Position numbers and translations under genes: made by a program. A DNA stretch of 64,000 bases from an uncultured Actinomycetota bacterium (lineage in GTDB: Bacteria > Actinomycetota > Humimicrobiia > Humimicrobiales > Humimicrobiaceae), in NCBI GenBank assembly GCA_964610385.1, contig CAZSXW010000006.1:17534-81533 (forward strand). The letters run 5' to 3'. Below, piece after piece: positions 12,027 through 52,162 of the stretch. A model generated the notes under the pieces. The model ran no database searches, had not been told where the DNA came from, and saw only the letters and a list, made by a program, of their open reading frames with translations. How positions within the stretch are numbered: position 1 is the first letter of the stretch; the number at the start of each line of letters is the position of its first letter.

Positions 12027-12611
12027 TTATCTGTTATTTACTATTCTTCTCGCCTTCTTTAAATGAAATGGCGTATTAATATTAAAGAAAAACTCCCGCC
12101 AATTTCCGAATTTTTCCATCTCTTCTTCCGTAATGTATTTCACCTTTACCTTAGGAAAAATAGATTGAATACTGCAGGTCCCTTGCTCTATATTCTCTTT
12201 TATCACAGGAATGATACTTTTTGAATACACGGCATGTAAGGGCTCAAAACGTTCACCGTATTTGGGAATCAGCACATTATAATCAGTCTTTTTTCTAACC
12301 ATATATTGAATTAAGTCTATATTAAGAAAAGGCATATCACAGCCACAAATAAAGTTATATTTACTTTGGGATACTGATAGTCCTGTATAAATTCCTCCTA
12401 AAGGTCCTTTTTCAGAAACTATATCTTTTACTAATCTTACTTCTGAAAATCGGCAATCAGGAAAAGAGTTACAGATTATAAAAACATCATCGAAAACGAT
12501 TTTTAGTTTTTCTACAATTGTCTCTATTACCAGATTTTTATTAATTTGTAGCAAGAGTTTATTTTTTTTCATCCGCCGGCTTTTTCCTCCGGCGAGAATT
12601 ATACCAGTCAT
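12027..12611 (-). CDS. mobA: molybdenum cofactor guanylyltransferase MobA
   Basis: N-terminal GIILAGGKSRRM motif and MobA length; sits in the fdh operon. Confidence 0.75.
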   Translation of the reverse strand: MTGIILAGGKSRRMKKNKLLLQINKNLVIETIVEKLKIVFDDVFIICNSFPDCRFSEVRLVKDIVSEKGPLGGIYTGLSVSQSKYNFICGCDMPFLNIDLIQYMVRKKTDYNVLIPKYGERFEPLHAVYSKSIIPVIKENIEQGTCSIQSIFPKVKVKYITEEEMEKFGNWREFFFNINTPFHLKKARRIVNNR

Positions 12612-12624
12612 TTTGTCTCTTTTT

Positions 12625-13914: not shown

Positions 13915-14348
13915 TTCTTCTTCCTTAACTCTCTCAAAATTTCTCTAATTTTTTGGGGAGTCAAGTTGTCGTAAACTTTCTCATTAATCATCATTGCCGG
14001 TGCTTCATTACATATCCCCAGACAACTTACCTCTTCTATAGTAAACTTGCCATCGGCTGTTGTTTCTCCAACTTTAATCTTTAATTCTTTCTCTAAAACT
14101 TTAAAAATACTCTTCGACCCCATTAGGTGACAGGGTCCACTGTCGCAAATCCGAATTACATACTCACCCCGCGGTTTTAAGCTAAACAGTGAGTAAAAAG
14201 TAGCCACACCATAAACCTCGCTATAACTTAAACCTGCCTCCTGAGCAATAAGCTTCAACTTATATTCAGTAATGTAATTATGCTTGTTTGCCCTTTGCTC
14301 TTTGTTTAAAAGGGCAATGATATCTTTTTCTTTATTTCTTAACTTCAT
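13911..14348 (-). CDS. NuoE-like [2Fe-2S] thioredoxin-like ferredoxin subunit
   Basis: Cys pattern CDSGPC...CLGICNEAP; 4-bp overlap with the nuoF-like gene. Confidence 0.85.
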   Translation of the reverse strand: MKLRNKEKDIIALLNKEQRANKHNYITEYKLKLIAQEAGLSYSEVYGVATFYSLFSLKPRGEYVIRICDSGPCHLMGSKSIFKVLEKELKIKVGETTADGKFTIEEVSCLGICNEAPAMMINEKVYDNLTPQKIREILRELRKKK

Positions 14349-14350
14349 TT

Positions 14351-17047
14351 TTAAATTCTTTCTATCTTTACGGCTGACACTTTATATTCAGGAATTTTAG
14401 CCACAGGGTCTAGAGCATCATTGGTTAAAAGGTTTGCTGCTGATTCCGCAAAATGGAAAGTCATAAAGACTACTCCCTTATCCACACGGTCGGTGATTTT
14501 TACTTTAACTTTAAGCTTTCCACGACGTGAGCTTACCCTCACCCAATCATTATTTTTAATTTTTAATTTTTCTGCGTCTTGTGGATTAATCTCTAAAAAG
14601 CCTTTGGGGGCAATACTATCCAGTGGTTTTGACCTGCGGGATAAAGAGCCAGTATGAAAATGGTAGAGAACTCTACCCGTGGAGAGAAGGAAGGGATATT
14701 CTTTATTGGGTAGTTCTGCTGGGGGAATATAATCTACAGGAGTAAAAAGACCCCTTCCCCGAGTAAATTTATCTTTATGTAAATAGGGTGTACCTGGATG
14801 TTCGCGACTCGGGCACGGCCACTGTAAGCCCTGTCCTTCTAAGCGATTAAAATGGACACCGCCATAAATAGGAGTTAAAGAAGCAATCTCGTCCATTATC
14901 TCTCTTGGCGAATGATAAGCTATTGGATAGCCCATTCTCTTACCTATTTCCATGATAATCTTCCAGTCCTCTTTGCTTTTTCCAATGGGAGGAATTGCCT
15001 TATGTAGAAGCTGAATTCTGCGGCATGTATTGGTGAAAGTTCCCTCTTTTTCAGCAAAAGATACGCCAGGAAGGACCACATCAGCGAGTTCGGCTGTCTC
15101 AGTTAAAAAAATATCCTGAACTACTAAGAAATCAAGGTTTTCCAGTCCTTCTCTTACATGATTAAGATTGGGATCGCTGAGCATAGGATTTTCACCCATT
15201 ATGTAAAGCCCTTTAATCTCACCTTTGCTTGCTGCATCTATGATCTCTACTACAGTTAGCCCTTCCTTTGAAGGAAGCTTTACTCCCCAGGTGGTTTCAA
15301 AGTTCTCTCTAATTTTCGCCTCACTTACCCTCTGGTAACCCGGAAAAACATTGGGTAAGGCTCCCAAATCACAAGCACCCTGGACATTATTCTGTCCACG
15401 TAGAGGATTAACACCAGTACCTTCTCGCCCCACATTGCCGCAGAGCATAGCTAAATTGGCCAGGGATAAAACATTATCAGTCCCTGTAGTATGTTGAGTT
15501 ATACCCATAGCAAAAACAATAGAGCCTCTATCTGCTTTTCCATACATTCTTGCAGCAGTAATCAATTTTTCTTCAGGTATACCGGTAATTTTCTCTACTT
15601 TTCCAGGAGTATATTTAGAGACTACTTTCCTGAATTCATCAAAGTTTTCTGTACGATTTCTTAAGAATTCTTTATTATAAAGGCCTTCATTAATAATTAC
15701 ATTCATCAGACCATTAATCCATGCAACATCGGTTCCACTTTTTTGCCTTAACCAGATTTCGGCATATTCAGTTAACTCGATTGCTCGTGGGTCTACTACT
15801 ATTAATTTTGTACCATTATAAGCTGCCAGGTGTTTAAAATAGCTTCCAATTATCGGGTGGTTCTCCGTAGTATTAGAACCGGTTACTAAAATGACATCTG
15901 CTCTCTCAAAATCCCAGATAGAATTGGTCATTGCTCCACTGCCAAAAGCGCGAGCAAGGCCAGCCACAGTAGAAGCATGACAAAGACGAGCACAGTGGTC
16001 AACATTATTAGTGCCGAAGCAGATGCGGATAAACTTTTGAAATAGATAATTTTCCTCATTAGTACACTTAGCTGATGATAATCCAGCTAAAGCATCACTG
16101 CCGTATTTATCCTTCAATTCCTTAAATTTAGTGGTTACTAAATTTAGCGCTTCATCCCAGCTTGCTTCTTCAAATTTTCCATTGTGTTTAATTAAGGGAG
16201 TAGTAAGGCGGTCTTTGTGATGGACATAGTCAAGTCCAAAACGTCCTTTAACACAGAGACTTCCTTTATTGTCAGGACCCTTCTCAACTCCATAGACTTT
16301 TACGATTCTATCATTTTTAATGTTTAATTCTATCTGACAGCCAACTCCACAATAAGGGCAAGTAGTTTGTACTTTTCGAAACTCCCAGCTCCTACCTTGA
16401 AACCGGGCTAATTTTTCAGTTAATGCACCAGTAGGGCATGCTTGGATGCAAGCTCCACAAGAGACACAGTCAGTGTCTGCCAGCGGTTGGTCTAATCCCG
16501 AAATAAGAAATGTACCGCTGCCGCGATCAGCAAAATTTAATACCCTCTGAACTGTAATTTCGGCACAGGCACGCACACATCGTCCACAAAGAATACATTT
16601 ATTAAGATCTTTTTGGATTACCGGGCTGGAATCTTCAATAGGCTCAATTGACTTACTGACGGGAAAACGTATCCTATCAATACCCAATTCATAAGCTAGA
16701 TCCTGAAGCTCACACTGACCATTACTCTCACAAAATAAACAATCATGCTCATGCTCTGATAGGATTAGTTCTACAATCAATTTCCGCGCATCATCTATTT
16801 CCTCATCGGAGGTTATAACATTCATCCCTTCAACTACTTCTGTTGTACAGGCAGTTTCCCAGCTTGGCCTATCATTAATCTTTACCATGCAGACCCGACA
16901 GCTTCCAGCAATACTTAAGCCTTTTTTATAGCATAAATGAGGAATTTTAATTCCATTGGCTAAAGCTACCTCCATGATGGTAGAACCTTTTTCTGCCTGA
17001 ATAAGTTTGCCATTAATAGTTAGATTTACTGTATTGTTCTTTTCCAA
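14351..17047 (-). CDS. fdhA: formate dehydrogenase alpha subunit, molybdopterin/tungstopterin, cysteine-type (NAD-dependent FdhA with NuoG-like N-terminus)
   Basis: N-terminal 2Fe-2S plus several 4Fe-4S Cys clusters and a molybdopterin oxidoreductase body. The active-site context ARLCHASTVAGL has Cys, not a TGA/Sec codon. Confidence 0.9.
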   Translation of the reverse strand: MEKNNTVNLTINGKLIQAEKGSTIMEVALANGIKIPHLCYKKGLSIAGSCRVCMVKINDRPSWETACTTEVVEGMNVITSDEEIDDARKLIVELILSEHEHDCLFCESNGQCELQDLAYELGIDRIRFPVSKSIEPIEDSSPVIQKDLNKCILCGRCVRACAEITVQRVLNFADRGSGTFLISGLDQPLADTDCVSCGACIQACPTGALTEKLARFQGRSWEFRKVQTTCPYCGVGCQIELNIKNDRIVKVYGVEKGPDNKGSLCVKGRFGLDYVHHKDRLTTPLIKHNGKFEEASWDEALNLVTTKFKELKDKYGSDALAGLSSAKCTNEENYLFQKFIRICFGTNNVDHCARLCHASTVAGLARAFGSGAMTNSIWDFERADVILVTGSNTTENHPIIGSYFKHLAAYNGTKLIVVDPRAIELTEYAEIWLRQKSGTDVAWINGLMNVIINEGLYNKEFLRNRTENFDEFRKVVSKYTPGKVEKITGIPEEKLITAARMYGKADRGSIVFAMGITQHTTGTDNVLSLANLAMLCGNVGREGTGVNPLRGQNNVQGACDLGALPNVFPGYQRVSEAKIRENFETTWGVKLPSKEGLTVVEIIDAASKGEIKGLYIMGENPMLSDPNLNHVREGLENLDFLVVQDIFLTETAELADVVLPGVSFAEKEGTFTNTCRRIQLLHKAIPPIGKSKEDWKIIMEIGKRMGYPIAYHSPREIMDEIASLTPIYGGVHFNRLEGQGLQWPCPSREHPGTPYLHKDKFTRGRGLFTPVDYIPPAELPNKEYPFLLSTGRVLYHFHTGSLSRRSKPLDSIAPKGFLEINPQDAEKLKIKNNDWVRVSSRRGKLKVKVKITDRVDKGVVFMTFHFAESAANLLTNDALDPVAKIPEYKVSAVKIERI

Positions 17048-17302: not shown

Positions 17303-18487
17303 GTGTATTTAAAGAAATTAGAATTAAAGGACTATAGAAATTACAGTGACGTAAGTTTAAATTTAGATAAAAATACTATTCTCATATTAGGCAACAACGG
17401 CAACGGCAAAACAAACTTGCTGGAGTCAATATATTATTTATCTACAGGAAGGTCTCACAGGACGTACATCCAGGACGAGATAATCAGATGGGGAAGTGAG
17501 TACTCTATAATAAGGGCCCTGGTCGGATCTGAAAAGAACGATCAAAAGGATAATCTTATAGAAATTGAGCTGGGCAGAGATAATAATATTAAGATAAGAA
17601 TTAATGGGATATACCATAGGAAAAAATCTGCTTTTATATCCATTCTTCCTTCAGTTATATTTTCTCCAGATGATCTGAAGATTATAAAATCAGGGCCTCT
17701 GGATAGAAGAAATTTTCTTGATTCAATACTTGATAGAATAGATAAGCAATATTACAGACAGAGGCTTCAGTATAACAAAATTCTTACTCAAAGAAACAGC
17801 CTGGTCAAAAGCATCAGTGGTGGGACCAAAAACGCTGCATTATCTACCCTGGAAGTTTGGAATGAAAATATAATCAAATATGGTACTGGCATAATAGAGA
17901 AAAGAAGCAGTCTGCTGGCTGAATTCAGAAATGAGTTTAAAGGTTATATGAATGATTTTTTCAAAGGAGTAGAAGTAGACCTCTTTTATATATTCAGCTG
18001 GGATAGAGGAGAAGACTCTTATAACCAGGTAGTCAATAGCGGTGATGAAATTATAGAGAAAGACGGTCTTAGCGGAAGCGAGTTAAAGGATATATTCAGA
18101 TTAAAATTAAAGCAAAGCCTGGAAAAAGACCTTCTGTATAAAACTACGACTGTCGGGCCGCATAGGGATGATTTCATTATTTTACTGGATGGTAAGAATT
18201 TAAGATCCTTTGGCTCTCAGGGCCAGCAGAGAGCTGCTTCTATAAGTCTGAAGCTCTGCGAGTTGAACGTCCTTGAGAAGAGGTTCAAGAGAAATCCGGT
18301 ATTCCTTCTTGATGACGTATTTTCGGAACTTGACATCAGTAGAAGAAAAGTATTGGTAAAAGCCATAGGCAGCGGGTTTCAAACTTTTGTAACTACTACA
18401 AATATCAGTTACCTTGATAAACTGGACCTGGAGTTCGGGGATAAATTCTTAATAGAAGATAATAAAATAGCGGTCATAGGCCTGTGA
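17303..18487 (+). CDS. recF: DNA replication and repair protein RecF
   Basis: Walker A GNNGNGKTNLLESI and the RecF signature region; located upstream of gyrB. Confidence 0.9.
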   Translation: MYLKKLELKDYRNYSDVSLNLDKNTILILGNNGNGKTNLLESIYYLSTGRSHRTYIQDEIIRWGSEYSIIRALVGSEKNDQKDNLIEIELGRDNNIKIRINGIYHRKKSAFISILPSVIFSPDDLKIIKSGPLDRRNFLDSILDRIDKQYYRQRLQYNKILTQRNSLVKSISGGTKNAALSTLEVWNENIIKYGTGIIEKRSSLLAEFRNEFKGYMNDFFKGVEVDLFYIFSWDRGEDSYNQVVNSGDEIIEKDGLSGSELKDIFRLKLKQSLEKDLLYKTTTVGPHRDDFIILLDGKNLRSFGSQGQQRAASISLKLCELNVLEKRFKRNPVFLLDDVFSELDISRRKVLVKAIGSGFQTFVTTTNISYLDKLDLEFGDKFLIEDNKIAVIGL

Positions 18488-18508
18488 CCGGGAGTGTATA
18501 ATAGGACC

Positions 18509-18802
18509 ATGAAAAACTTCGAAGATATCGGCAGTATAATAGAAGGTATTATAAAAGATACGGATGTCAGACACAGATTAACCGAATCCAAGATTTTTAT
18601 TCATTGGAGAGAGATCGTTGGTACTGAAATATCCAAGAAAGCGAAGCCTGAAAGGATAAGCAGGGGAACGTTGTATGTATCTGTAACAACTTCCATATGG
18701 GCAAATGAACTAAGTCTTATGTCTGATAAACTTATTGAGAAAATCAATTCATTTATTGGTGGAGAATTGGTTAAAAAGATAAGATTTAAGCAAAATCTTT
18801 AG
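18509..18802 (+). CDS. DUF721 (YaaB/RemB-like) protein
   Basis: Conserved recF-gyrB spacer gene; pattern ...FIHWREIVG...GTLYVSV...W.NEL. Start set at the internal ATG, which has a GGGAG Shine-Dalgarno sequence. Confidence 0.6.
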   Translation: MKNFEDIGSIIEGIIKDTDVRHRLTESKIFIHWREIVGTEISKKAKPERISRGTLYVSVTTSIWANELSLMSDKLIEKINSFIGGELVKKIRFKQNL

Positions 18803-18986
18803 CCCATTTTAGGCAAATTTATAGTGAAATATGGTATAATAATCGTATGCTAAAATAGTAGAATTATAAGTCTTTTTTATAAAAAATATTTACATTTGAG
18901 TAAGAAAGGGTAATGGATTCCAAGATATTTTTATTGTCTTCTTGTTACCCTTTAACAATATTCTAAAAAGTAAATTATACATTTAA

Positions 18987-20903
<1,917 letters not shown>

Positions 20904-20915
20904 TTGGGAGTATAA

Positions 20916-23348
20916 ATGGTATTCGAACTTAGAGGTAAAATAAAAAATATTGAGATCGAATCGGAGATGCAGGATTCCTACCTTAGCTATGCCATGAGTG
21001 TTATTATAGGCAGGGCACTGCCGGATGTAAAAGATGGTCTCAAGCCGGTCCACCGGAGAATATTGTATGCCATGTATGATATGGGCATCAAATCCAATAT
21101 CCCTTATAAAAAGTGCGCCCGAATTGTGGGAGAGGTGCTTGGCAAATATCACCCCCACGGTGACACTGCGGTATATGATGCCATGGTACGTATGGCTCAG
21201 GATTTTTCCCAGCGTTATATTCTGGTAGACGGGCATGGAAATTTTGGTTCTGTTGACGGTGATAGTGCCGCAGCTATGAGATATACGGAAGCAAGGCTCT
21301 CTAAGATTGCTGAGGAGCTTCTGGTCGATATAGAAAAGGATACCATAGAGTTTGTCGACAATTTTGACAGTTCACTAAAAGAGCCATCGAAACTGCCTTC
21401 AAAATTCCCAAATCTTTTAGTAAATGGATCTTCCGGTATTGCCGTGGGAATGGCTACCAATATCCCGCCTCATAACCTGGGAGAGATAATAGATGGGGTC
21501 ATCCATTATATAGACGATCCTAAAGCTAAAGTCACCGATCTTATGAAGAATGTAAAGGGCCCTGATTTTCCTACCGGCGGTATCATAATGGGGATAGGAG
21601 GGATAAAAGAAGCATATGAGACCGGCAGGGGGCGTATAGTCATAAGAGGCAGGGTTCATCAAGAACAGCCCAGAAAAGGAAGAACCCAGATAATAATCAC
21701 CGAACTCCCATACCAGGTAAATAAATCAAGATTTATTGAAAAAATAGCCGCGCTGGTCAGAGCTAAAAGGATAGAGGGTATTAGTGACCTGCGGGATGAA
21801 TCAGATAAGAGCGGGATGAGAGTGGTAATTGAACTAAAAAGAGATTCAGTCCCGAACGTTATCATTAATTCTTTGTACAAAAACACACAGCTTGAAGACA
21901 CCTTTGGAATAATTATGCTGGCTCTTGTTGATGGTGTACCCAGGACTCTTAATTTACTGGGTCTGATAGCAGAATATGCCAAACATAGATTTGATGTGGT
22001 AGTGAGGAGAACCAAATACGAATTAAAGAAAGCTGAAGAGCGGGATCATATCCTAAAAGGTCTTTTAATAGCTCTAGATAATCTGGATGAGGTTATAAAG
22101 ACCATAAAATCTTCAAAAGATGTACCTACGGCAAGAAAAAGATTGGTTAAGGATTTTAAACTCACTGTCATACAGGCACAGGCCATACTGGATTTGAAGT
22201 TACAGCGCTTGACCGGATTGGAAAGAGATAAGATAAAATTAGAACACAAACAGTTAATTGAAAAAATAAAACAGTTAAAGAAGCTCCTCGGTAGTGATAA
22301 GTTGATATACGGAGTGATAAAAGATGAACTGTCTGAGATCAAAAAGAAATACGGCGATGATAGAAGGACAGATATGACCACAGATATCTCTGATATCGAG
22401 ATCGAGGATCTTATACCTGAAGAAGAAAATGTCATATCAATATCCCACTCGGGTTATATAAAAAGAGTACCTGTTACTACATATAGAAAGCAGGGAAGGG
22501 GCGGAAGAGGAGTAACCGGTACCAATCTCAAGGAAGACGATTTTGTCAAACACCTGTTTATAGCATCTACACATCATTATATTATGTTTTTCTCAAATCT
22601 GGGCAAGGTGTATAGATTAAAAGTTCATCAAATACCTACGGGAAGCAGGATGTCAAAAGGCAAGGCAATCGTAAATCTGCTTCCCTTTAGACCCGGGGAG
22701 ACTGTAACAGCCATAATCGCGGTAAGAGATTATGGAGATGATAAGTATTTGATAATGTCCACAAAGAAAGGAATAGTTAAAAAGACTCCCATTAAAGCTT
22801 ATGACTCTTCCAGAAGAGACGGGATCATCGCCATGACCATAAAAGAAGGAGATGAATTGATAGGAGTAGAAAAGTCCAACGGCAGCGATGAAGTCATAAT
22901 GGTTTCAAGAAATGCACAGGCTATAAGGTTCAGTGAAAAAGACTGCAGACCGATGGGTAGAACTTCGCAGGGAGTAAAGGGGATGAAGCTTGCCAGAGGA
23001 GATGAAGCCCTTTCTATGATGGTTGTAAAGGAGCTTGAAGGAGACCTTTTTGTGCTTACGGAGAATGGTTATGGGAAAAGAACGCAGCTGTCTGAGTATA
23101 AGACACAGAGAAGAGGGGGGGTTGGTCTAAGAACCTTAAAAATAACAGAAAAGAAAGGAAAAGTAGCCGGGGCAGGGATAATCAAGGATGAGCATGATGT
23201 AATGATAATTTCTGATACAGGATTACTGATAAGGATTCCCGCCAAGTCCATATCAAGGATAGGGAGATCCACCCAGGGAGTTAAAGTCATTAATCTGGGA
23301 GAAGGAGCTAAAGTAGCATCTTATTCCATAGTTACTTCTGAAAGTTAA
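20916..23348 (+). CDS. gyrA: DNA gyrase subunit A
   Basis: N-terminal [25 protein letters not shown] pattern with the active-site Tyr region, plus C-terminal beta-pinwheel repeats. Confidence 0.95.
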
Positions 23349-45902: not shown

Positions 45903-46323
45903 AGTTAAATTGAAAATTTTTAAAGTTTTTTACTATGACCATTTTATCTCCAGTTGATAAGAGTATATGGTAAAGATTTCCTATTTTTTGCCTCCTAATC
46001 TTTAGATTTAAGCTTCTCAATTTCTTCGGCTATCTTTTCAAAGGAATCAAATATACAATTGACTGTCTTATAAGTAAAGTCGCAGTGGAAAATATTGGGC
46101 TTGGTGCAGACATCCTTGAATTTTAGCTCACTCATAACTATAAACCTCTGAGTATTTAGATATTCAATTAATTTACTCATCTTTCTTTCCTTGATTAACT
46201 TTTTTTAAGACGATTATATCAGAATATGTAATTTTTTTTACATACTTGATTAAATTACACTTCTGATTTTTAAAAATAACTTAGTAAATAAATATTAAAA
46301 AGAGCAGTAAAGGCTGAAAATTG

Positions 46324-46352
46324 TTGACAAAGTTATTATTTAGTATTAATAT
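46324..46352 (+). promoter_or_regulatory. sigma70-like promoter TTGACA-N17-TAATAT
   Basis: Seen in the sequence: -35 at 46324..46329 and -10 at 46347..46352, just upstream of the Fur-box-like repeats. Confidence 0.4.
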
Positions 46353-46357
46353 TCTTT

Positions 46358-46391
46358 GATAAATATTATCATTATCATTATCAATATCAAT
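46358..46391 (+). promoter_or_regulatory. Fur-box-like array of ATTATC/GATAAT hexamers
   Basis: GATAAATATTATCATTATCATTATCAATATCAAT. Its first 19 nt match the classical Fur box GATAATGATAATCATTATC at 16 of 19 positions. It overlaps the transcription start and start-codon region. Confidence 0.45.
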
Positions 46392-46395
46392 ATGA

Positions 46396-47376
46396 TTGAA
46401 CAGCATGGACGACAAAGAGAGAGCCATAAATTTCTGGAAAGATAAAATTAAGGCCAGCGGTTTTAGGTTTACTGAAACTAGAAAAGCAATTCTTTATACT
46501 CTAATAGAGAATCCTGGAGAATATAATATAGAAGAATTACATTCTTTAGTTTGTGTCAAATATCCAAAAATCGGGATTGCTACAATTTACAGGGCTATGA
46601 AACTAATGGAGAAAATAGGTTTGGTAAATAAATATTATGATAATGAGAACATTAGATCTAATTACAGGCTTAATAATATTAGGACTTCAAAAACTTTTAA
46701 AAATTTTCAAAAGATGGAACAACATAGTTCTGTTCTAAAGAAAAATCATAAAACTGATTCACGAGATTACCATGATGTGCTCTCATTATCCGATACGGGT
46801 AGTAATTATAAGGATTTAAGGGAACCTGAAAGAATAAAGACACTCGAAAGACAGATGTCAATATGGTTAAAGGATTTAAATAAATTAAAAAGAGAAAAGG
46901 AGATAACATTGGAAGATATGGTCAAGGACCTGACAAAAATTGATGAGATTCTCAAAAACCACGGTAATGAAAGAAGTAATCTAATTCAGATTCTGCTGGA
47001 TATCCAGAAAGATTGCAATTGGCTCCCAAAACATGTTTTATTTTATATTAGCGATAAATTAAAAATACCACTGACTAATGTCTATAATATTGCTTCGTTT
47101 TACAAGTATTTTAATTTAGAACCCCAGGGTAAATACAATATAGTAGTATGTATGGGTACTGCCTGTTATGTAAGGGGTAGTATGAATCTGCTGCAGAGGA
47201 TTGTGAATGTTCTGGGAGTCGATCCGGGAGACACTACTAATGATTTAAGATTTACATTAGATACTGTTAATTGTCTGGGGGCTTGTGCCCTGGGGCCGGT
47301 TATGATGGTGGGAAATAAATACTATACAAATCCTTCTACCAAAAAATTAAAGCAGATATTTAGTAAATTTGATTGA
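46396..47376 (+). CDS. fusion protein: N-terminal Fur-family winged-helix DNA-binding domain plus C-terminal NuoE-type [2Fe-2S] thioredoxin-like ferredoxin domain
   Basis: N-terminus FTETRKAILYTLIENPGEYNIEELHSLV...KIGIATIYRAMKLMEKIGLV matches the Fur/PerR DNA-binding domain. C-terminus CMGTAC...CLGAC carries the NuoE Cys pattern. Alternative ATG start at 46405. Confidence 0.6.
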   Translation: MNSMDDKERAINFWKDKIKASGFRFTETRKAILYTLIENPGEYNIEELHSLVCVKYPKIGIATIYRAMKLMEKIGLVNKYYDNENIRSNYRLNNIRTSKTFKNFQKMEQHSSVLKKNHKTDSRDYHDVLSLSDTGSNYKDLREPERIKTLERQMSIWLKDLNKLKREKEITLEDMVKDLTKIDEILKNHGNERSNLIQILLDIQKDCNWLPKHVLFYISDKLKIPLTNVYNIASFYKYFNLEPQGKYNIVVCMGTACYVRGSMNLLQRIVNVLGVDPGDTTNDLRFTLDTVNCLGACALGPVMMVGNKYYTNPSTKKLKQIFSKFD

Positions 47377-47442
47377 CCTTATGGTAAATAGTTATGACAA
47401 ATAAGATAGATTTAAAGTGACATTTTTGAAAAAGGGGTAATT

Positions 47443-49380
47443 ATGGCTATAAAAACGAATAAAAGGGTAATAAACTCGCCAGAAGTATTAAAGGAAAGAG
47501 CGAAAGAACTTGAAAAAGAATTAGAGAACAAGATCATTATTTCTATCTGTTCAGGGACAGGCTGTAAAGCCCTATCATCAGATAATCTTTTCGATGCCCT
47601 AAAAAAGGAAATAGGAAAAAGAAATAAAGAAGAAATAAAAAAAATAGTATTAAAGAAGACCGGGTGTCACGGATACTGTGAGAGGGGTCCTATTATAGTA
47701 ATACAGCCACAGGGGGTATGTTATTTGGGAGTAAGTGAAAAAGATATCCCTGAAATAGTAGAAAAAACTTTGAATGGGGAGATTATTACTTCACTACTTT
47801 ACAATAATGACGAAGGAAATACTATTAAGAATGAATCAGAAATTCCATTTTATAAATATCAGCAGAGAATCATTTTAAGTAATAATTCAAAAATAGACCC
47901 TGAAAGTATTGAAGATTATATAAGAGTCGGAGGTTATCAAGCTATGGCAAAGGCTCTTAAAGAAATGACTCCGGATGAAATCTTAAACGAAGTAAAAAAG
48001 TCTAATCTTAGAGGAAGAGGAGGCGGCGGTTTCCCTGCAGGAATAAAATGGGAAACGACAAGGAATACTCCTTCGGATCAGAAATATATAGTTGTCAATG
48101 CTGATGAGGGAGACCCTGGTGCTTATATGGATAGATCCCTACTGGAGGGCAATCCACATGGTGTTCTGGAAGGACTTATTATAGGAGCATATGCCATAGG
48201 AGCGAGCAGGGGTTATGTCTATGTTAGACAGGAATATCCACAGGCAGTAAAGAATATAAAAACGGCAATCGAACAGGCCAGGGAATATGGTTTTCTTGGT
48301 AATAATATCTTTGGTTCTGGGTTTGATTTTGATGTTATGGTCCATAGAGGTGCCGGAGCTTTCGTTTCCGGTGAATCCAGCGCACTTATGGCGGCAATTG
48401 AAGGAAATGTAGGTGAACCAAGACTTAAATATACCAGAACCGCAGTTAGTGGATTATGGGGAAAACCAACTAACTTGAATAATGTTGAGACCTGGGCAAA
48501 TGTACCATATATCATTAAAAATGGATCAGAATGGTTTACAAGTATCGGTACCAAGAAAAGCCCCGGAACAAAGATCTTCTCTCTGGTCGGGAAAGTCAAT
48601 AATACCGGGCTTGTCGAAGTGCCTATGGGAATATCCCTAAGAGATATTATATTTAAAATTGGGGGAGGAATAAAGAACGGGAGAAAATTTAAAGCAGTTC
48701 AGACAGGAGGACCTTCGGGTGGAGTTTTACCTGATAATTTAATTGATCTTCCGGTTGATTTCGATGAACTGGATAAAGCTGGGTCAATGATGGGTTCTGG
48801 CGGCATGATAGTCATGGATGAATCGGATTGTATGGTTAATGTAGCTCATTACTTCTTAAAGTTTTTGGCTGATGAATCATGTGGCAAATGTGTTCCATGT
48901 CGCGAAGGATTAAGGCAAATGCTTTATATCTATGAAAGAATAATGAATGGTAAAGGAAAAGAGGAAGACTTAAAACTTTTAGGAGACCTTTCCATTATGA
49001 TGAAAGAAGCTTCAATGTGTGCTCTTGGTACAACTGCTCCAAACATTGTGCTGACCACCCTGAAATATTTTAAAGAAGAATATGAAGCTCATATATACTA
49101 TAATATGTGCCCAGCAAAGGTATGCAAGCCTCTGGTGACTTATATTATAGAGAAAGAAAAATGTGCAGGTTGTGGAAGTTGCGCCAAAGTGTGCCCGGTA
49201 AATGCGATAGAGGGTGAACTAAAGAAACCTTATGAGATAAATACTGATATATGTATAAAATGCGGGTCATGTATTGAGGTCTGTCCGTCAAAATATAATG
49301 CGATTGTCAAGAAGACTGGTATTGTTGAAAAGGTAAAAGCGGAAAAGAAGGAAGTCAAAGATGGACTGGAAGCCACCTAA
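47443..49380 (+). CDS. NuoF/HydB/HndC-like NAD(P)H-binding flavoprotein with N-terminal Trx-like 2Fe-2S and C-terminal 2x[4Fe-4S] ferredoxin domains
   Basis: GGGGFPAGIKWE and CGKCVPCREG motifs; C-terminal CAGCGSCAKVCP and CIKCGSCIEVCP. Confidence 0.85.
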   Translation: MAIKTNKRVINSPEVLKERAKELEKELENKIIISICSGTGCKALSSDNLFDALKKEIGKRNKEEIKKIVLKKTGCHGYCERGPIIVIQPQGVCYLGVSEKDIPEIVEKTLNGEIITSLLYNNDEGNTIKNESEIPFYKYQQRIILSNNSKIDPESIEDYIRVGGYQAMAKALKEMTPDEILNEVKKSNLRGRGGGGFPAGIKWETTRNTPSDQKYIVVNADEGDPGAYMDRSLLEGNPHGVLEGLIIGAYAIGASRGYVYVRQEYPQAVKNIKTAIEQAREYGFLGNNIFGSGFDFDVMVHRGAGAFVSGESSALMAAIEGNVGEPRLKYTRTAVSGLWGKPTNLNNVETWANVPYIIKNGSEWFTSIGTKKSPGTKIFSLVGKVNNTGLVEVPMGISLRDIIFKIGGGIKNGRKFKAVQTGGPSGGVLPDNLIDLPVDFDELDKAGSMMGSGGMIVMDESDCMVNVAHYFLKFLADESCGKCVPCREGLRQMLYIYERIMNGKGKEEDLKLLGDLSIMMKEASMCALGTTAPNIVLTTLKYFKEEYEAHIYYNMCPAKVCKPLVTYIIEKEKCAGCGSCAKVCPVNAIEGELKKPYEINTDICIKCGSCIEVCPSKYNAIVKKTGIVEKVKAEKKEVKDGLEAT

Positions 49381-49439
49381 ATTCCATTTAAATGATTAAA
49401 GTGACATCAAGTTTAATTTATTAAATAAAAATTTCAGGA

Positions 49440-50066
49440 GTGGAGACTATGAATAAAAAAATAAATACGGATGAAAAAAAAGTCAATATAGTTATAGATG
49501 GCGAGAAAATACGAATTGAAAAAGGAAGCACTTTGATGCAGGCAGCCAAAAAACTCGGAATCCATATCCCTTCTCTTTGTTATCATGAGAAAATAAAGCC
49601 GCATGGTGCTTGCAGATTATGCATAGTTGAAATAGAAAAAAGAGGAAAGTCAAAAATAGTTGCCTCATGTGCTTTTCCTGTTGAAGAAGGACTAATAGTA
49701 CATACTGAGAGCCCCAAGGTAGAACAGATAAGGAAGAATCTCGTAGAACTCTATATGGCATTATTCCCTTTTAACCTGGAGATTAAAAGATTGGTAAAAA
49801 AATACGAACTAGTTTCAACCAGATATAAAAAAGAATATAATTACTGCATACTTTGTGGCCTTTGTGTAAGATACTGTGAAGAGGTAAAGAAAAATAACGC
49901 TATTGGATTTGTAGGTAGGGGAATAAATAAAAAAGTGGTATTCATACCTGAGTCAGCATATTTTAAGAAATGTAAAGACTGTATGGAATGCATGGATATC
50001 TGTCCTACAGGAGTATTTCCATCGAATTATGGGATAGAAAGAATACCTCAAGTCAGCGACTTATAA
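49440..50066 (+). CDS. NuoG/HydA N-terminal-like ferredoxin (2Fe-2S plus 4Fe-4S), with no catalytic domain
   Basis: Cys pattern C.......C..C ... CILCGLCVRYC ... C..C..C characteristic of the N-terminal domain of NuoG/FdhA/[FeFe]-hydrogenase large subunits. Only 208 aa. Confidence 0.6.
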   Translation: METMNKKINTDEKKVNIVIDGEKIRIEKGSTLMQAAKKLGIHIPSLCYHEKIKPHGACRLCIVEIEKRGKSKIVASCAFPVEEGLIVHTESPKVEQIRKNLVELYMALFPFNLEIKRLVKKYELVSTRYKKEYNYCILCGLCVRYCEEVKKNNAIGFVGRGINKKVVFIPESAYFKKCKDCMECMDICPTGVFPSNYGIERIPQVSDL

Positions 50067-50188
50067 AATACTATAATATAATCAAGCTTTAATATCTTCT
50101 ATACTGCATTGATTTATTTGATGGTATATCATTTCTAATATTAAAAATCTGTTTACTTTCCAAAAAATGTCTGAAAGCTGCCCGATAC

Positions 50189-50217
50189 TTGACTATTAAG
50201 CCTATTTTATTTATATT
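50189..50217 (+). promoter_or_regulatory. sigma70-like promoter TTGACT-N17-TATATT
   Basis: Seen in the sequence upstream of the Fur-family gene. Confidence 0.35.
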
Positions 50218-50220
50218 AAT

Positions 50221-50250
50221 TGATAATAGTAACAATTATTACTATCGATA
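50221..50250. promoter_or_regulatory. Fur-box-like imperfect palindrome TGATAATAGTAACAATTATTACTATCGATA
   Basis: GATAAT ... ACTATC inverted arms immediately downstream of the putative -10 and about 60 bp upstream of the Fur-family start. Confidence 0.35.
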
Positions 50251-50309
50251 GATGTTCAGTTTTTATTTTTAGAAGGTTAATAATATAAAAAATATAATAG
50301 ATTAAGAAA

Positions 50310-50798
50310 GTGGCAAAAGTATCTAAAGAAAATCTAAATAATAAGCATATTAGTTTTTATAAGGAAAAATTAATAAAGGCTGGATATAAGCTTACCAAAT
50401 CCAGGGAAGCAATAATTAAGATTATGGGGGAAACTTTTAAATTATATGATGCAGACAGCCTTTATCTGGAATTGAAAAAAGATAATCTTGATATTGGTAT
50501 TGCTACAATTTATAGAACACTGGAACTTTTAAGCAGACTTCAGATAATTTGTAAGATCATATTTGGCAGCGGGAAAACGTATTATATGCTTGCGGAAAAT
50601 TGCCATAAACAGACTTCCATATATATGGTTTGCAATAATTGTAAAAAGATTATTACTAATAATAAATGCCTTAACAATTCTATAGTAATAAGACTCAAGG
50701 ACAGCGCTGAGAAAGACATTCTTAATAACTGCAATCTTAAAATAGATAACTACCAGATTCTATTTACCGGCCTCTGTGATGAGTGTAACAAAAGCTGA
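50310..50798 (+). CDS. Fur family transcriptional regulator (Fur/PerR/Zur type with two CxxC)
   Basis: DNA-binding-domain pattern LTKSREAIIKIM...IGIATIYRTLELL, plus CNNC and CDEC structural-zinc motifs. Confidence 0.7.
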   Translation: MAKVSKENLNNKHISFYKEKLIKAGYKLTKSREAIIKIMGETFKLYDADSLYLELKKDNLDIGIATIYRTLELLSRLQIICKIIFGSGKTYYMLAENCHKQTSIYMVCNNCKKIITNNKCLNNSIVIRLKDSAEKDILNNCNLKIDNYQILFTGLCDECNKS

Positions 50799-51043: not shown

Positions 51044-52162
51044 ATGAAGAAAAATAGATTATACTTAATCATTTTAGTCTTGACTGCAATCTTCTTTTTC
51101 ATTATTTCTGCTACGTCTATCCAGTGCACTGCACTAAAAGGAGAAGGAACTGAATTTGATAATAAAGAAGAAGTATCTAAAACAGAAGAAAGTAAAGAGT
51201 CGAAAGAATCAAATGAAGTATCTGAAGAAATAGAGGGAGAAGAAGAGGCAGTTGAGGAGGAGACTACCGAGGGAGAATCTTCAGAAGAGGGAAAAGAAGT
51301 TACCAAAGCAGAAGAACTGGAAGCTCCTACAATAGAAATTAAAATTTATGAAGGGCCTCTTTTTTCAGAAGCTGATGAGGTATGCTACTGGAGAGTAGAA
51401 GCCAAGGTAACCGGCAATCCCACTCCAGAGGTTGAGTTTTCGAAGGATGATTCAGAAGGGACATTGGGGTCAGGAAAATGCCAAATAAACCTTAATGATC
51501 CTCTTGATACCTACACTCTTACCGCCACCGCCACCAATTCAGAAGGTTCTTCTTCTGATTCTATAAATTTGAGCTGGGGATGTGAAGAGGAACCCTCTGG
51601 AGGAGAAGCTGGCGGAGGTACCGATGGAGAAGATTTTGAACCTCCAGAATGGGAAGGGAGAGATATATTGGATTATCCTGAGATGATTTTCAGCCCTTTT
51701 GAGATTGGCTATATTGTTTATCCCACCGGAGTAAATACCACGGAACTAATAATAGGTGATTCAATAAGCAACACAGATGTTAGAGGTTTTTTTGCTTTTG
51801 ATTTAATTACCCTTAGAGGAAAAGAGATAGTTTCAGCAACCCTTAGGCTGAATACTTATAAATATTATCCAGACCCATCCTTTAAGGGTAAGATAAATAT
51901 ATCCTTTAGGGAGTATTTACCTTTAGATGCAGGTGATTATAATACACCACCTGGTTTAATTATAATGTTTCCCTTTGAGAATAATGAGAATCCCATCGAG
52001 TTCGATTTATTTACATCTTATGTTCAAGAAAAAGTAAATGATAGTTGTATATTAGGATTTTGTATATGGTACGAGTCTTCAGATACTGATTGGGATCATG
52101 AGGTTGATGGAAGAGAATATACAAAAGATTCTATCGAGTTGACTATAAGGTATATAGACTAG
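51044..52162 (+). CDS. lipoprotein with acidic linker; paralogue of the 37122 gene
   Basis: Shares the conserved core blocks (APTI..I.IY...YRV.A.VTGNP.P.V....DDS...G.....NLNDP..T.TL..TATNSEG...DSI.LSWGC and a following GY...TG......GD domain) with the 37122..38201 protein. Confidence 0.5.
   Translation: MKKNRLYLIILVLTAIFFFIISATSIQCTALKGEGTEFDNKEEVSKTEESKESKESNEVSEEIEGEEEAVEEETTEGESSEEGKEVTKAEELEAPTIEIKIYEGPLFSEADEVCYWRVEAKVTGNPTPEVEFSKDDSEGTLGSGKCQINLNDPLDTYTLTATATNSEGSSSDSINLSWGCEEEPSGGEAGGGTDGEDFEPPEWEGRDILDYPEMIFSPFEIGYIVYPTGVNTTELIIGDSISNTDVRGFFAFDLITLRGKEIVSATLRLNTYKYYPDPSFKGKINISFREYLPLDAGDYNTPPGLIIMFPFENNENPIEFDLFTSYVQEKVNDSCILGFCIWYESSDTDWDHEVDGREYTKDSIELTIRYID

What the first reader, a model, noticed from the sequence alone, without database searches (positions are those of the whole stretch)
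46324..50798. Candidate undescribed Fur-regulated redox module: Fur-DBD::NuoE fusion, NuoF/HydB-like flavoprotein, NuoG-N-like ferredoxin, and Fur
The four + strand genes form an apparent operon.
- The first protein joins an N-terminal domain with the Fur/PerR DNA-binding signature (…TETRKAILYTL…IGIATIYRAM…GLV) to a complete NuoE-type [2Fe-2S] domain (CMGTAC…CLGAC). The Fur metal-sensing and dimerisation domain is replaced by a redox-active Fe-S domain.
- It is followed by a 645-aa NuoF/HydB-type NAD(P)H flavoprotein with extra ferredoxin domains, then a 208-aa NuoG/HydA N-terminal-like ferredoxin with no catalytic subunit.
- A canonical Fur-family regulator follows, with its own promoter and a Fur-box-like palindrome.
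- The operon promoter TTGACA-N17-TAATAT is immediately followed by tandem ATTATC hexamers, a Fur-box match.
- Two readings are possible. The fusion may be a transcription factor whose DNA binding answers to the redox state of a NuoE-type cluster. Or it may be a diaphorase subunit tethered to DNA. I do not know a characterised precedent for this fusion. My guess is an iron-responsive, NADH-linked ferredoxin oxidoreductase module that serves the Fe-S-rich fdh operon or a hydrogenase encoded elsewhere in the genome.
Basis: partly seen in the sequence, partly recalled or inferred. Interest (0 to 1): 0.75.

Follow-up and report, generated by a model that had tools for sequence, protein, structure and literature searches.

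The report
DNA-binding subunit of a redox enzyme
One subunit of a flavin/iron-sulfur NADH-ferredoxin-type enzyme has swapped its usual N-terminus for the DNA-binding head of a Fur repressor. A matching Fur-box operator sits on its own promoter, so the enzyme probably switches off its own genes. Related enzymes in many other microbes do the same with a different DNA-binding head and a different operator.

Summary
**Observation.** It is confirmed. Window 46405-47376 encodes a Fur-type winged-helix domain, without the Fur metal/dimerisation domain, joined to a complete NuoE-type [2Fe-2S] domain. A HydB/BfuB-type NuoF and a 208-aa minimal BfuA follow. It is not an assembly error: all 120 listed protein clusters (of 1018 hits) and about 33 Humimicrobiia (Actinomycetota) species carry the fusion.

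**The operator.**
- A near-perfect Fur box (TGATAATCATTATCATTATCA) lies directly after the -10 hexamer in 33 of 33 orthologous promoters.
- The same three-gene module occurs in other phyla.
  - There the NuoE subunit often carries a probable ribbon-helix-helix head, with a different palindrome (GTTAAAC-N-GTTTAAC) at the same promoter position in 18 of 21 loci.
  - Other versions carry a receiver domain, with a sigma-54 promoter in 10 of 11 loci.
- The N-terminal domain and the cis-element change together. This argues that the fused head binds its own promoter.

**Reading.** This is an autoregulated "trigger enzyme" in the manner of PutA, built on a Bfu-type bifurcation core with no adjacent catalytic partner.

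- "Fur-regulated, iron-responsive" is not shown.
- The downstream "canonical Fur" is atypical: no regulatory histidines, extra conserved cysteines, and its own distinct operator.

I found no published precedent. DNA binding and the signal that controls it are untested.

The parts
46324..46352 (+). Sigma-70-type promoter of the operon: TTGACA (46324-46329), 17-nt spacer, TAATAT (46347-46352).
   Evidence: The same TTGACA-N17-TATAAT-like promoter stands upstream of the fusion gene in 33 orthologous loci.
46357..46394 (+). Operator O1, a Fur box. It consists of TGATAAATATTATCA (a 7-1-7 match with one mismatch) followed by hexamers ATTATC x3, AATATC and AATATG. It begins 4 nt after the -10 hexamer, so it overlaps the likely transcription start.
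   Evidence: The consensus TGATAATCATTATCATTATCA is present at the same position in 33 of 33 loci. In 414 kb of these loci, 7-1-7 matches with one mismatch or fewer occur almost only there.
46405..47376 (+). Fusion gene, BfuC/NuoE-type subunit with a Fur-type head; alternative TTG start at 46396.
- Residues 1-90 (46405-46674): Fur-type winged helix.
- Residues 93-139 (46681-46821): disordered, variable linker.
- Residues 141-185 (46825-46959): one long amphipathic helix.
- Residues 190-323 (46972-47373): NuoE [2Fe-2S] domain.
   Evidence: - Pfam.
- AF2 model: pLDDT 85-90 for the head, below 50 for the linker, helix at 141-185.
- Invariant residues: A59, T60, Y62, R63 in the recognition helix and Cys249/254/290/294.
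- Regional conservation: 0.64 recognition helix, 0.17 linker, 0.50 long helix, 0.72 NuoE domain.
- Hydrophobic positions at 3-4 spacing along the long helix.
- Best solved match of the C-terminal part is T. maritima HydC, 7P5H_C, E 5e-43.
47443..49380 (+). BfuB/HydB-type NuoF flavoprotein. It has an N-terminal thioredoxin-like [2Fe-2S] domain, an FMN/NADH site, SLBB, an N3-type [4Fe-4S] domain and a C-terminal 2x[4Fe-4S] ferredoxin domain.
   Evidence: Pfam. Best solved matches are bifurcating enzymes: 7T2R_B NiFe-HydB (E 1.4e-230), 9MQX_B, 7Q4V_B, 8A6T_B and 9N5U_B NfnB. It follows the fusion gene in every locus long enough to show it.
49440..50066 (+). Minimal BfuA, like the N-terminus of NuoG/HydA. 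It has one [2Fe-2S] (Fer2_4) and one 2x[4Fe-4S] (Fer4_Nqo3) domain. It has no His-ligated cluster domain and no catalytic domain.
   Evidence: Pfam gives no PF10588, whereas the window's FdhA has it. The best full-length solved match is 9MQX_A, the 247-aa BfuA (WorA) subunit of WorABCSL (paper identified). It is present in 27 loci.
50189..50217 (+). Promoter of the Fur-family paralog: TTGACT, 17-nt spacer, TATATT.
50222..50250 (+). Operator O2: GATAATAGTAACAATTATTACTATC. The core GTAACAATTATTACTATC lies at 50229-50246 and forms a palindrome, GTAAyAA|TTrTTAC. It is distinct from the Fur box.
   Evidence: It lies right after the -10 hexamer upstream of the paralog in about 11 of 13 loci, with a divergent variant in one more. 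In the 414 kb scanned, the only other near-matches are at the ends of L007 and L028, where the paralog presumably lies beyond the contig end, and a 2-mismatch site in the Fur/fusion-gene intergenic region of one contig (fetched as L001 and L029).
50310..50798 (+). Atypical Fur-family regulator and accessory component.
- Full-length fold with two CxxC pairs.
- No His-rich regulatory site.
- Two extra conserved Cys: C120, in an 8-residue insertion, and C141.
   Evidence: Pfam and NCBIfam, below all equivalog cut-offs. Alignment to 9IRE Fur shows HHH replaced by TSIY. Family alignment. It is adjacent to the module in 13 of 33 loci, in three arrangements.
45995..46180 (-). Conserved 61-aa ORF of unknown function, transcribed divergently from the operon promoter region. 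Possible accessory component.
   Evidence: tblastn finds it next to the fusion operon in about 15 species-level loci at 45-95% identity, usually divergent and upstream. No Pfam family.

Best explanation
**What it is.** The operon 46405-50066 encodes the core of a BfuABC-type (HydABC/HoxEFU-like) flavin and iron-sulfur NAD(H)/ferredoxin oxidoreductase, with no catalytic third-substrate subunit next to it.

**The unusual part.** Its NuoE-type [2Fe-2S] subunit (BfuC) carries an N-terminal Fur-type winged-helix DNA-binding domain in place of the Fur metal-sensing and dimerisation domain.

**Proposed mechanism.**
- Two such heads are brought together by the conserved 45-residue amphipathic helix and/or by the dimeric enzyme complex.
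- They bind the palindromic Fur box (46357-46394), which overlaps the transcription start of the operon's own promoter.
- The enzyme subunit therefore represses its own operon, as a "trigger enzyme" in the manner of PutA.
- Release from DNA is presumed to depend on the redox, cofactor or assembly state of the complex. In solved Bfu enzymes the NuoE-type domain moves when NADH and FMN bind.

**Status of each step.**
- Shown: the architecture, the conservation, the operator and the co-variation of head and operator.
- Inferred: DNA binding, dimerisation, repression and the signal.
For: **The fusion is real and selected.**
- All 120 listed clusters carry both domains.
- About 33 GTDB species carry it.
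- The recognition helix is the best-conserved part of the head, with A59, T60, Y62, R63 invariant and K16, T23, R26 at 90% or more. It matches IGLATVYR of the Fur in PDB entry 9IRE.

**It is the only NuoE in the operon.** All four cluster Cys are invariant, so it must also serve as the BfuC subunit.

**The operator is conserved.** It lies directly after the -10 hexamer in 33 of 33 loci and is almost absent elsewhere in 414 kb.

**Head and cis-element change together in the same module** (NuoF 60-65% identical).
- Probable RHH head: GTTAAAC-N1-3-GTTTAAC at the same promoter position in 18 of 21 loci across Bacteria and Archaea, with one other match in 225 kb.
- Receiver-domain head: no palindrome, but a sigma-54 -24/-12 element in 10 of 11 loci, plus a histidine kinase and an NtrC-type activator in the loci checked.

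**Dimerisation and movement are plausible.**
- The long helix has near-invariant hydrophobic positions at 3-4 spacing.
- The closest solved complex is a dimer of protomers, and its HydC C-terminal domain becomes mobile when FMN and NADH bind (PMC8880783).

**A second box.** A perfect box after a -10 hexamer precedes a VOC gene in L013. In other genomes that gene sits in or after the operon.
Against: - There is no experiment. Binding, repression and the signal are all inferred.
- The operator is a generic Fur box. Of 120 metagenomic hits to the 21-mer, only 8 are fusion loci. A conventional Fur, or the neighbouring Fur paralog with its near-identical recognition helix, could bind it instead or as well.
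- I could not check whether these genomes also encode a canonical Fur.
- The head is joined by a disordered linker of 14-94 residues, which gives no obvious allosteric path from the cluster to the DNA.
- Dimerisation through the helix is not tested, because only monomer models were possible.
- The RHH assignment of the sister forms is sub-threshold: best Pfam E 0.0018, and hhalign is not significant.
- Only about 7 kb on each side of each locus was seen, so the regulon is unknown.
Confidence: 0.6

Rival explanations
1. The box is an ordinary Fur site. A conventional Fur, or the neighbouring Cys-rich Fur paralog, represses the operon in response to iron or another metal or redox signal. The fused head then either competes with that regulator or binds elsewhere.
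For: - The 21-mer operator is indistinguishable from classical Fur boxes and occurs widely in unrelated metagenomic contigs.
- The Fur paralog has a recognition helix IGIATIYRTLELL, almost identical to the Fur in PDB entry 9IRE.
- The paralog is linked to the operon in 13 of 33 loci, in three different arrangements.
Against: - The paralog has its own, different and equally conserved operator. It lacks the His ligands of iron-sensing Fur.
- It is absent from the neighbourhood in 20 of 33 loci, although the box is present in all 33.
- Repression of an Fe-S-rich enzyme by iron-replete Fur runs against the usual iron-sparing logic (general knowledge).
- It does not explain why sister modules with an RHH-like head carry a different operator at the same position.
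Confidence: 0.25
2. The Fur-like head no longer binds DNA. It is a leftover of a gene fusion, or serves as a protein-protein or structural module of the enzyme.
For: - It lacks the Fur dimerisation domain.
- It hangs on a long disordered linker.
- In one lineage the equivalent position holds a receiver domain, which does not bind DNA.
Against: - The residues that contact DNA in Fur proteins are the most conserved part of the head: Y62 and R63 are invariant, and K16, T23 and R26 are at 90% or more.
- The linker next to it evolves freely, at 0.17 identity.
- A matching operator is retained in all 33 promoters.
Confidence: 0.07
3. The three proteins are mainly a metabolic NADH:ferredoxin module for a partner encoded elsewhere, such as formate dehydrogenase, CODH/ACS or a hydrogenase. 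In this view regulation through the head is a minor feature.
For: - The closest solved relatives of the NuoF and BfuA subunits belong to enzymes that dock separate catalytic subunits, NiFe-HydABCSL and WorABCSL.
- Neighbours in some clades are CODH/ACS genes, FdhD/MobA/FdhA or an FNT formate channel.
Against: - No partner is conserved next to the module in 27 Humimicrobiia loci or about 40 loci of other phyla.
- The window's own fdh operon has its own NuoE and NuoF.
- This reading is compatible with the best explanation rather than opposed to it.
Confidence: 0.4

Closest known systems
BfuABC family of electron-bifurcating flavoenzymes (HydABC, NiFe-HydABCSL, WorABCSL, NfnABC; Schut et al. 2022, PMC9304861)
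   Same: - The NuoE-type [2Fe-2S] BfuC subunit.
- The NuoF-type BfuB subunit, with the extra N-terminal 2Fe-2S and C-terminal 2x[4Fe-4S] domains. It matches 7T2R_B at E 1e-230.
- The small BfuA subunit, like that of WorABCSL (9MQX_A).

Sources.
   Different: - There is no third-substrate catalytic module in or next to the operon.
- BfuA lacks the His-ligated cluster domain.
- BfuC carries a DNA-binding head, a linker and a long helix. The Bfu papers I read do not mention this.
PutA (proline utilisation A), the classic trigger enzyme: a flavoenzyme with an N-terminal ribbon-helix-helix domain that represses its own put operon (from general knowledge)
   Same: - A redox enzyme carries an N-terminal DNA-binding domain on a flexible tether.
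- The operator lies in its own promoter.
- The sister forms of this module appear to use an RHH head, as PutA does.
   Different: - The enzyme family is unrelated.
- Here the head sits on one subunit of a multi-subunit Fe-S flavoprotein.
- In this lineage the head is a Fur-type winged helix.
- The release mechanism is unknown. In PutA it is membrane binding of the reduced enzyme.
Fur family regulators (Fur, PerR, Zur)
   Same: - The winged-helix fold and the recognition helix IG(I/L)AT(I/V)YR.
- The operator matches the 7-1-7 / 19-bp Fur box.

Sources.
   Different: - The whole C-terminal dimerisation and metal-sensing domain is missing: Pfam profile positions 76-121 are not matched.
- No metal-site ligands are present.
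- The sensing part, if there is one, is a NuoE [2Fe-2S] domain inside an enzyme complex.
HoxEFU diaphorase of bidirectional NiFe hydrogenase, and NuoEFG of complex I
   Same: The same three domain types in the same gene order.
   Different: - Scores fall below every NCBIfam equivalog cut-off shown: HoxE 139 against 224, HoxU 122 against 333, NuoF 491 against 559.
- No hoxYH or nuoA-N genes lie nearby.
- The NuoF subunit has the extra domains typical of bifurcating enzymes.
[2Fe-2S] or [4Fe-4S] cluster transcription factors (SoxR, IscR, RsrR, NsrR, RirA; from general knowledge)
   Same: A DNA-binding domain and an Fe-S cluster in one polypeptide, which may couple redox or cluster state to transcription.
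   Different: - Those are dedicated regulators, with the cluster inside or next to the DNA-binding fold.
- Here the cluster domain is a bona fide enzyme subunit, separated from the head by a disordered linker and a 45-residue helix.

Membership tests
Fur family (PF01475) | N-terminal winged-helix DNA-binding domain with the Fur recognition helix | tested here: met
   - Pfam FUR E 1.4e-11, residues 21-94.
- Match to the Fur in PDB entry 9IRE over residues 7-83.
- AF2 shows four helices and a two-stranded wing at pLDDT 85-90.
Fur family (PF01475) | C-terminal dimerisation domain with structural and regulatory metal sites | tested here: not met
   Only profile positions 2-75 of 121 are matched. 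The region after residue 92 is a disordered linker, then a helix and the NuoE domain.
Fur family (PF01475) | Metal-dependent binding to a Fur box | not testable with these tools
   A Fur box is present and conserved at the protein's own promoter. Binding was not measured.
BfuABC (HydABC-like) bifurcating enzymes | BfuC: NuoE-type thioredoxin-like [2Fe-2S] domain with four Cys ligands | tested here: met
   PF01257 E 2.9e-47. Cys249/254/290/294 are invariant in 67 sequences. 7P5H_C E 5e-43.
BfuABC (HydABC-like) bifurcating enzymes | BfuB: NuoF core plus an N-terminal [2Fe-2S] and a C-terminal 2x[4Fe-4S] domain | tested here: met
   Pfam domains. The top solved matches are all bifurcating BfuB subunits, led by 7T2R_B at E 1.4e-230.
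BfuABC (HydABC-like) bifurcating enzymes | BfuA with at least a [2Fe-2S] and a [4Fe-4S] ferredoxin domain | tested here: met
   Fer2_4 plus Fer4_Nqo3. 9MQX_A aligns over residues 15-193. The His-ligated cluster domain PF10588 was not found.
BfuABC (HydABC-like) bifurcating enzymes | A third-substrate catalytic module (H-cluster, NiFe, Fdh, WOR, Nfn and others), fused or encoded alongside | tested here: not met
   None is in the operon. No conserved neighbour appears in 27 Humimicrobiia loci or about 40 loci of other phyla. A partner encoded elsewhere is not excluded.
BfuABC (HydABC-like) bifurcating enzymes | Electron-bifurcating activity with NAD(H) and ferredoxin | not testable with these tools
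   This needs enzymology.
HoxEFU / respiratory NuoEFG | Equivalog-level similarity and linkage to hoxYH or nuoA-N | tested here: not met
   All NCBIfam scores shown are below the cut-offs. No such genes lie in the window around the operon.
Trigger enzymes (PutA-like autoregulatory enzymes) | An enzyme or enzyme subunit covalently joined to a DNA-binding domain | tested here: met
Trigger enzymes (PutA-like autoregulatory enzymes) | A cognate operator in its own promoter | tested here: met
   33 of 33 loci. The operator type changes with the head type in sister modules.
Trigger enzymes (PutA-like autoregulatory enzymes) | Demonstrated DNA binding that is switched by the enzyme's substrate or redox state | not testable with these tools

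The most novel reading that the evidence does not exclude
The three-protein complex is not a metabolic enzyme. It is a dedicated redox-poise sensor and repressor: a bifurcation core (FMN plus its surrounding clusters) reads the NADH/NAD+ and ferredoxin pools at once and turns that into DNA binding through the head on its NuoE subunit.

This would explain why no catalytic partner is ever encoded beside it. It would also explain why the N-terminus of this subunit has been exchanged repeatedly for different regulatory domains (RHH, Fur winged helix, receiver) across Bacteria and Archaea.
Probability: 0.2. Interest if true: 0.9.

Novelty: new variant of a known kind. Interest (0 to 1): 0.8.

Why it matters
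**A possible direct sensor.** Anaerobes must match gene expression to the redox state of NADH and ferredoxin. Rex, which senses NADH only, is the main sensor I know of. A bifurcation-type flavoprotein whose own subunit binds DNA would link the enzyme's redox and cofactor state directly to transcription.

**Scale.**
- These proteins occur in Syntrophobacteraceae, Dehalococcoidia, Bathyarchaeia, Thermoplasmata and other groups.
- An unrecognised regulatory layer may therefore sit on a widespread and functionally unassigned Bfu module.

**Testability.** The operators are short, perfectly conserved and easy to synthesise. The proteins are small enough to express.

**Annotation.** The result corrects the automatic label "NADH-quinone oxidoreductase subunit E".

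Tried and rejected
**Sequencing or assembly artefact.** Rejected. All 120 listed independent clusters have both domains.

**Metagenome scan for the 21-mer operator, to define the regulon.** Uninformative.

**Independent Fur::NuoE fusions in Pirellulales and others.** Rejected. Those full-length matches are receiver::NuoE fusions.

**Proof of the RHH fold in the sister forms.**
- The profile search of PDB sequences found only kinesin coiled coils.
- The remaining support is sub-threshold Pfam hits to RHH_3 and NikA-like in 7 of 14 sequences, the strand-helix-helix prediction and the sequence pattern.

**A conserved catalytic partner.** None found.

**Specificity residues that would assign the Fur box to the fused head rather than to the Fur paralog.** The recognition helices are too similar to decide.

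**Literature.** Eight searches and three papers searched for relevant terms gave no precedent. The library lacks most subscription journals.

**Not possible with these tools.** Multimer or DNA-complex modelling, and whole-genome scans of the MAGs.

Full report
**1.

- **Protein 1.** Pfam finds FUR at residues 21-94 (E 1.4e-11), matching only profile positions 2-75 of 121, which is the winged-helix DNA-binding half. It also finds a complete thioredoxin-like [2Fe-2S] NuoE domain at residues 182-325 (E 2.9e-47).
- **Protein 2.** A NuoF with the extra N-terminal [2Fe-2S] and C-terminal 2x[4Fe-4S] domains.
- **Protein 3.** Fer2_4 plus Fer4_Nqo3, with no catalytic domain.
- **Protein 4.** A full-length Fur-family protein.
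- **Promoter.** TTGACA-N17-TAATAT at 46324-46352 is followed at 46357 by TGATAAATATTATCA, one mismatch from the 7-1-7 Fur box, and by a run of ATTATC-like hexamers to 46394.
- **Start codons.** Gene callers on other assemblies start the fusion protein at the ATG at 46405, giving 323 aa.

**2. The fusion is a real, conserved family**

- All 120 listed hits, of 1018 in the protein database, carry both Pfam domains at 44-100% identity.
- A scan of one genome per GTDB species found full-length copies in about 33 MAG species labelled Actinomycetota. These include Candidatus Hydromicrobium americanum and Humimicrobiaceae, class Humimicrobiia.
- A sequencing error is excluded.
- The triad of fusion gene, nuoF and small bfuA is present in every locus long enough to show it, 27 loci in all.

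**3. Anatomy of the fusion protein**

An AlphaFold2 model built from 67 homologues gives four parts:

| Residues | Feature | pLDDT |
|---|---|---|
| 1-90 | Fur-type winged helix | 85-90 |
| 93-139 | Disordered segment | below 50 |
| 141-185 | One 45-residue helix | about 60-76 |
| 190-320 | NuoE domain | about 75-95 |

- **Conservation follows this layout** (mean pairwise column identity): recognition helix 0.64, linker 0.17, long helix 0.50, NuoE domain 0.72. The linker length ranges from 14 to 94 residues.
- **Conserved residues in the head.** A59, T60, Y62 and R63 are invariant; K16, T23 and R26 are at 90% or more. These sit in the motif IGIATIYR, which matches IGLATVYR of the Fur in PDB entry 9IRE. 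From general knowledge of Fur-DNA structures, the Tyr-Arg pair and the N-terminal basic residues contact DNA.
- **Cluster ligands.** The four cluster cysteines, 249, 254, 290 and 294, are invariant.
- **The long helix.** It has nearly invariant hydrophobic residues at 3-4 spacing, as expected for a coiled coil or a packed amphipathic helix.

**4. The enzyme part**

- The NuoF subunit's best solved relatives are all BfuB subunits of electron-bifurcating enzymes:
  - NiFe-HydABCSL, 7T2R_B, E 1.4e-230;
  - WorABCSL, 9MQX_B;
  - FeFe-HydABC, 7Q4V, 8A6T and 7P5H;
  - NfnABC, 9N5U.
- The 208-aa protein's best full-length match is the 247-aa BfuA subunit of WorABCSL, 9MQX_A.
- The NuoE domain's best match is T. 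maritima HydC.
- The module therefore meets the BfuB, BfuC and minimal BfuA criteria of the Bfu family (PMC9304861). It has no third-substrate module.
- The small BfuA also lacks the His-ligated cluster domain PF10588, which the window's own FdhA has.
- Scores are below every NCBIfam equivalog cut-off shown for HoxE, HoxU and NuoE/F/G.
- The window's formate dehydrogenase operon (12027-17047, minus strand) has its own NuoE and NuoF. I see no sign that the module serves it.

**5. The operator**

- In all 33 orthologous loci a TTGACA-N17-TATAAT-type promoter is followed within a few bases by the consensus TGATAATCATTATCATTATCA. This contains a perfect 7-1-7 box, TGATAAT-C-ATTATCA.
- In 414 kb of these loci, 7-1-7 matches with one mismatch or fewer are almost confined to this site.
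- The one clear extra site, in L013, follows a -10 hexamer in front of a VOC/glyoxalase gene. In L016 and L025 that gene lies in or after the operon. An FNT formate/nitrite channel is also a recurrent neighbour.
- The box by itself does not say who binds it. The sequence is a generic Fur box.

**6. The decisive comparative evidence**

The genome scan also returned loci from other phyla that match only from about residue 130 onward. They hold the same three-gene module: NuoF 60-65% identical and small BfuA 40-49% identical.

*Form with an RHH-like head*
- The NuoE subunit is 240-260 aa long.
- Its N-terminal extension reads K..FVGVRLTEEQ..LL..LQ...GLSKTELLLRGLELLSEYYSLGL.
- This has the pattern of a ribbon-helix-helix domain.
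  - AlphaFold2 predicts an extended segment, two helices (19-32 and 36-52), then the same long helix (61-104) and the NuoE domain.
  - Seven of 14 N-terminal fragments hit the Pfam RHH families RHH_3 or NikA-like below threshold, best E 0.0018.
  - hhalign aligns it in register with the NikR and CopG heads, but not significantly.
  - I call it a probable RHH.
- Upstream of these genes, between the -10 hexamer and the start codon, lies a palindrome of the type GTTAAAC-N1-3-GTTTAAC.
  - It is present in 18 of 21 loci from Syntrophobacteraceae, Dehalococcoidia, Bathyarchaeia/Hecatellales, Thermoplasmata and Halobacteroidaceae.
  - There is one other match in 225 kb, inside an RNase J-like gene.

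*Form with a receiver head*
- It occurs in Pirellulales, Chitinispirillaceae, Myxococcales and deltaproteobacteria.
- A response-regulator receiver domain (Pfam E 9e-29) replaces the strand and first helix.
- The palindrome is absent.
- A sigma-54 -24/-12 element, TGGCA-N6-TTGC, is present in 10 of 11 loci.
- A Cache-HAMP histidine kinase and an NtrC-type activator lie just upstream.

*What this means*
- The N-terminal domain of this subunit and the cis-element of its promoter change together: RHH with one palindrome, Fur winged helix with a Fur box at the same position, receiver with a sigma-54 promoter.
- The simplest explanation is that the fused head binds its own promoter.
- This is why I put autoregulation by the fusion protein ahead of regulation by a separate Fur.

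**7. How it probably works**

- *Shown.* The protein is the only NuoE-type subunit of the module, so it is part of the enzyme. It carries a conserved Fur-type head, and a matching palindromic operator overlaps the start of its own promoter.
- *Inferred.*
  - Two heads are needed for a palindrome. They could be supplied by a coiled coil of the 45-residue helix, by the dimeric state common in Bfu enzymes, or by both.
  - The closest solved relative is a dimer of pentamers. Its HydC C-terminal domain becomes mobile when FMN and NADH bind (PMC8880783).
  - Binding at the transcription start would repress the operon.
- *Unknown.* What releases the protein. Candidates are NADH or ferredoxin reduction, loss of the cluster, or assembly with partners.
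  - The long disordered linker argues against tight allostery.
  - It favours control by oligomeric state or by sequestration, as in PutA (general knowledge).

**8. The neighbouring regulator is not a canonical Fur**

- It aligns with the Fur in PDB entry 9IRE, but the HHH motif is TSIY and the histidine in the first domain is missing.
- Thirteen homologues share two CxxC pairs plus two further conserved cysteines, one of them in an 8-residue insertion.
- Its promoter carries a different conserved operator, GTAACAATTATTACTATC (window 50229-50246). It is a palindrome, GTAAyAA|TTrTTAC, found in about 11 of 13 loci, with a divergent variant in one more.
- Elsewhere in the 414 kb, near-matches occur only at the ends of L007 and L028 and as a 2-mismatch site in the Fur/fusion-gene intergenic region of one contig.
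- It sits next to the module in 13 of 33 loci, in three arrangements. I treat it as a linked accessory regulator whose ligand is unknown.
- A conserved 61-aa ORF (45995-46180, minus strand) is divergent from the operon promoter in about 15 loci.

**9. Comparison with what is known, and novelty**

- The enzyme part is a member of the Bfu family by subunit criteria, but it fails the third-substrate-module criterion.
- The head is Fur-like, but the protein is not a Fur: it has no dimerisation or metal domain.
- Functionally the closest analogue is PutA.
- Eight full-text searches and term searches within three Bfu-family papers found no description of a DNA-binding BfuC/NuoE/HydC subunit. The library is incomplete.
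- Public annotations call these proteins only "NuoE" or "NAD(P)H-dependent oxidoreductase subunit E".
- I rate it a new variant of a known kind: a trigger enzyme built on a bifurcation core.

**10. Verdict**

- The "Fur-regulated, iron-responsive" label should be dropped in favour of "self-regulating, DNA-binding Bfu subunit".
- Main uncertainties:
  - whether the fused head or another Fur-family protein occupies the box;
  - the signal that controls binding;
  - the enzyme's third substrate.
- Confidence in the best explanation is 0.6.
- Interest is 0.8. The finding extends to a large cross-domain family, and the operators make it directly testable.

Noticed in passing
window 50310-50798 and 50222-50250; homologues in L006, L013, L015, L026, L027, L029-L033, L036 and L038: A Fur-family subfamily without the regulatory histidines. 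It has six to eight conserved cysteines, two of them beyond the structural CxxC pairs and one in an 8-residue insertion. It has its own conserved palindromic operator, GTAACAATTATTACTATC, which is not a Fur box. What it senses is unknown.
   Followed up: partly
window 45995-46180 (- strand): A 61-aa ORF (MSKLIEYLNTQRFIV...CIFDSFEKIAEEIEKL) is conserved at 45-95% identity next to the fusion operon in about 15 species-level loci. It is usually divergent from the operon promoter. No Pfam family matches it.
   Followed up: partly
L041-L080, for example L073:5330-6052, L047:6863-7579 and L050:6770-7534: In many bacterial and archaeal phyla the NuoE subunit of the same three-gene module is 240-260 aa long, with a probable ribbon-helix-helix N-terminus. 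A GTTAAAC-N1-3-GTTTAAC palindrome lies between the -10 hexamer and the start codon in 18 of 21 loci. The search for such proteins reached its 8000-candidate scoring cap, and all 120 listed hits are annotated only as NuoE.
   Followed up: yes
L044, L051, L053, L061, L063, L067-L069, L072, L082 and L083: Receiver-domain::NuoE fusions head the same module. A sigma-54 -24/-12 element (TGGCA-N6-TTGC) is present in 10 of 11 loci. In the two loci checked with Pfam, a Cache-HAMP histidine kinase (L053) and an NtrC-type activator (L082) lie directly upstream.
   Followed up: partly
L013:3697-3711; L016, L024 and L025 downstream of bfuA: A second perfect Fur box follows a -10 hexamer in front of a VOC/glyoxalase gene in L013. 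In other genomes that gene lies in or after the fusion operon. An FNT formate/nitrite channel is a recurrent neighbour. Both are possible further members of the regulon.
   Followed up: partly
window 12027-17047 (- strand): An FdsABG-like formate dehydrogenase operon. It encodes FdhA (898 aa, with a NuoG-like N-terminus that includes the His-ligated cluster domain), NuoE (145 aa), a plain NuoF (429 aa) and MobA. It is separate from the fusion module.
   Followed up: partly
L026, L029 (the same contig as L001), L030, L031 and L038, upstream of the fusion operon: In one clade the module and its Fur paralog lie directly next to Wood-Ljungdahl genes: CODH/ACS subunits, CdhD, the pterin methyltransferase and a CooC-like ATPase. 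In another clade they lie next to FdhD, MobA and a formate-dehydrogenase-like molybdoenzyme that lacks the N-terminal 2Fe-2S domain.
   Followed up: partly
window 17303-23348: recF, gyrB and gyrA lie together, so the window probably sits near the chromosomal replication origin region.
   Followed up: no
window 51044-52162: A 372-aa protein with a signal-peptide-like N-terminus and a long acidic low-complexity stretch has no Pfam match. A homologue occurs in L011.
   Followed up: no
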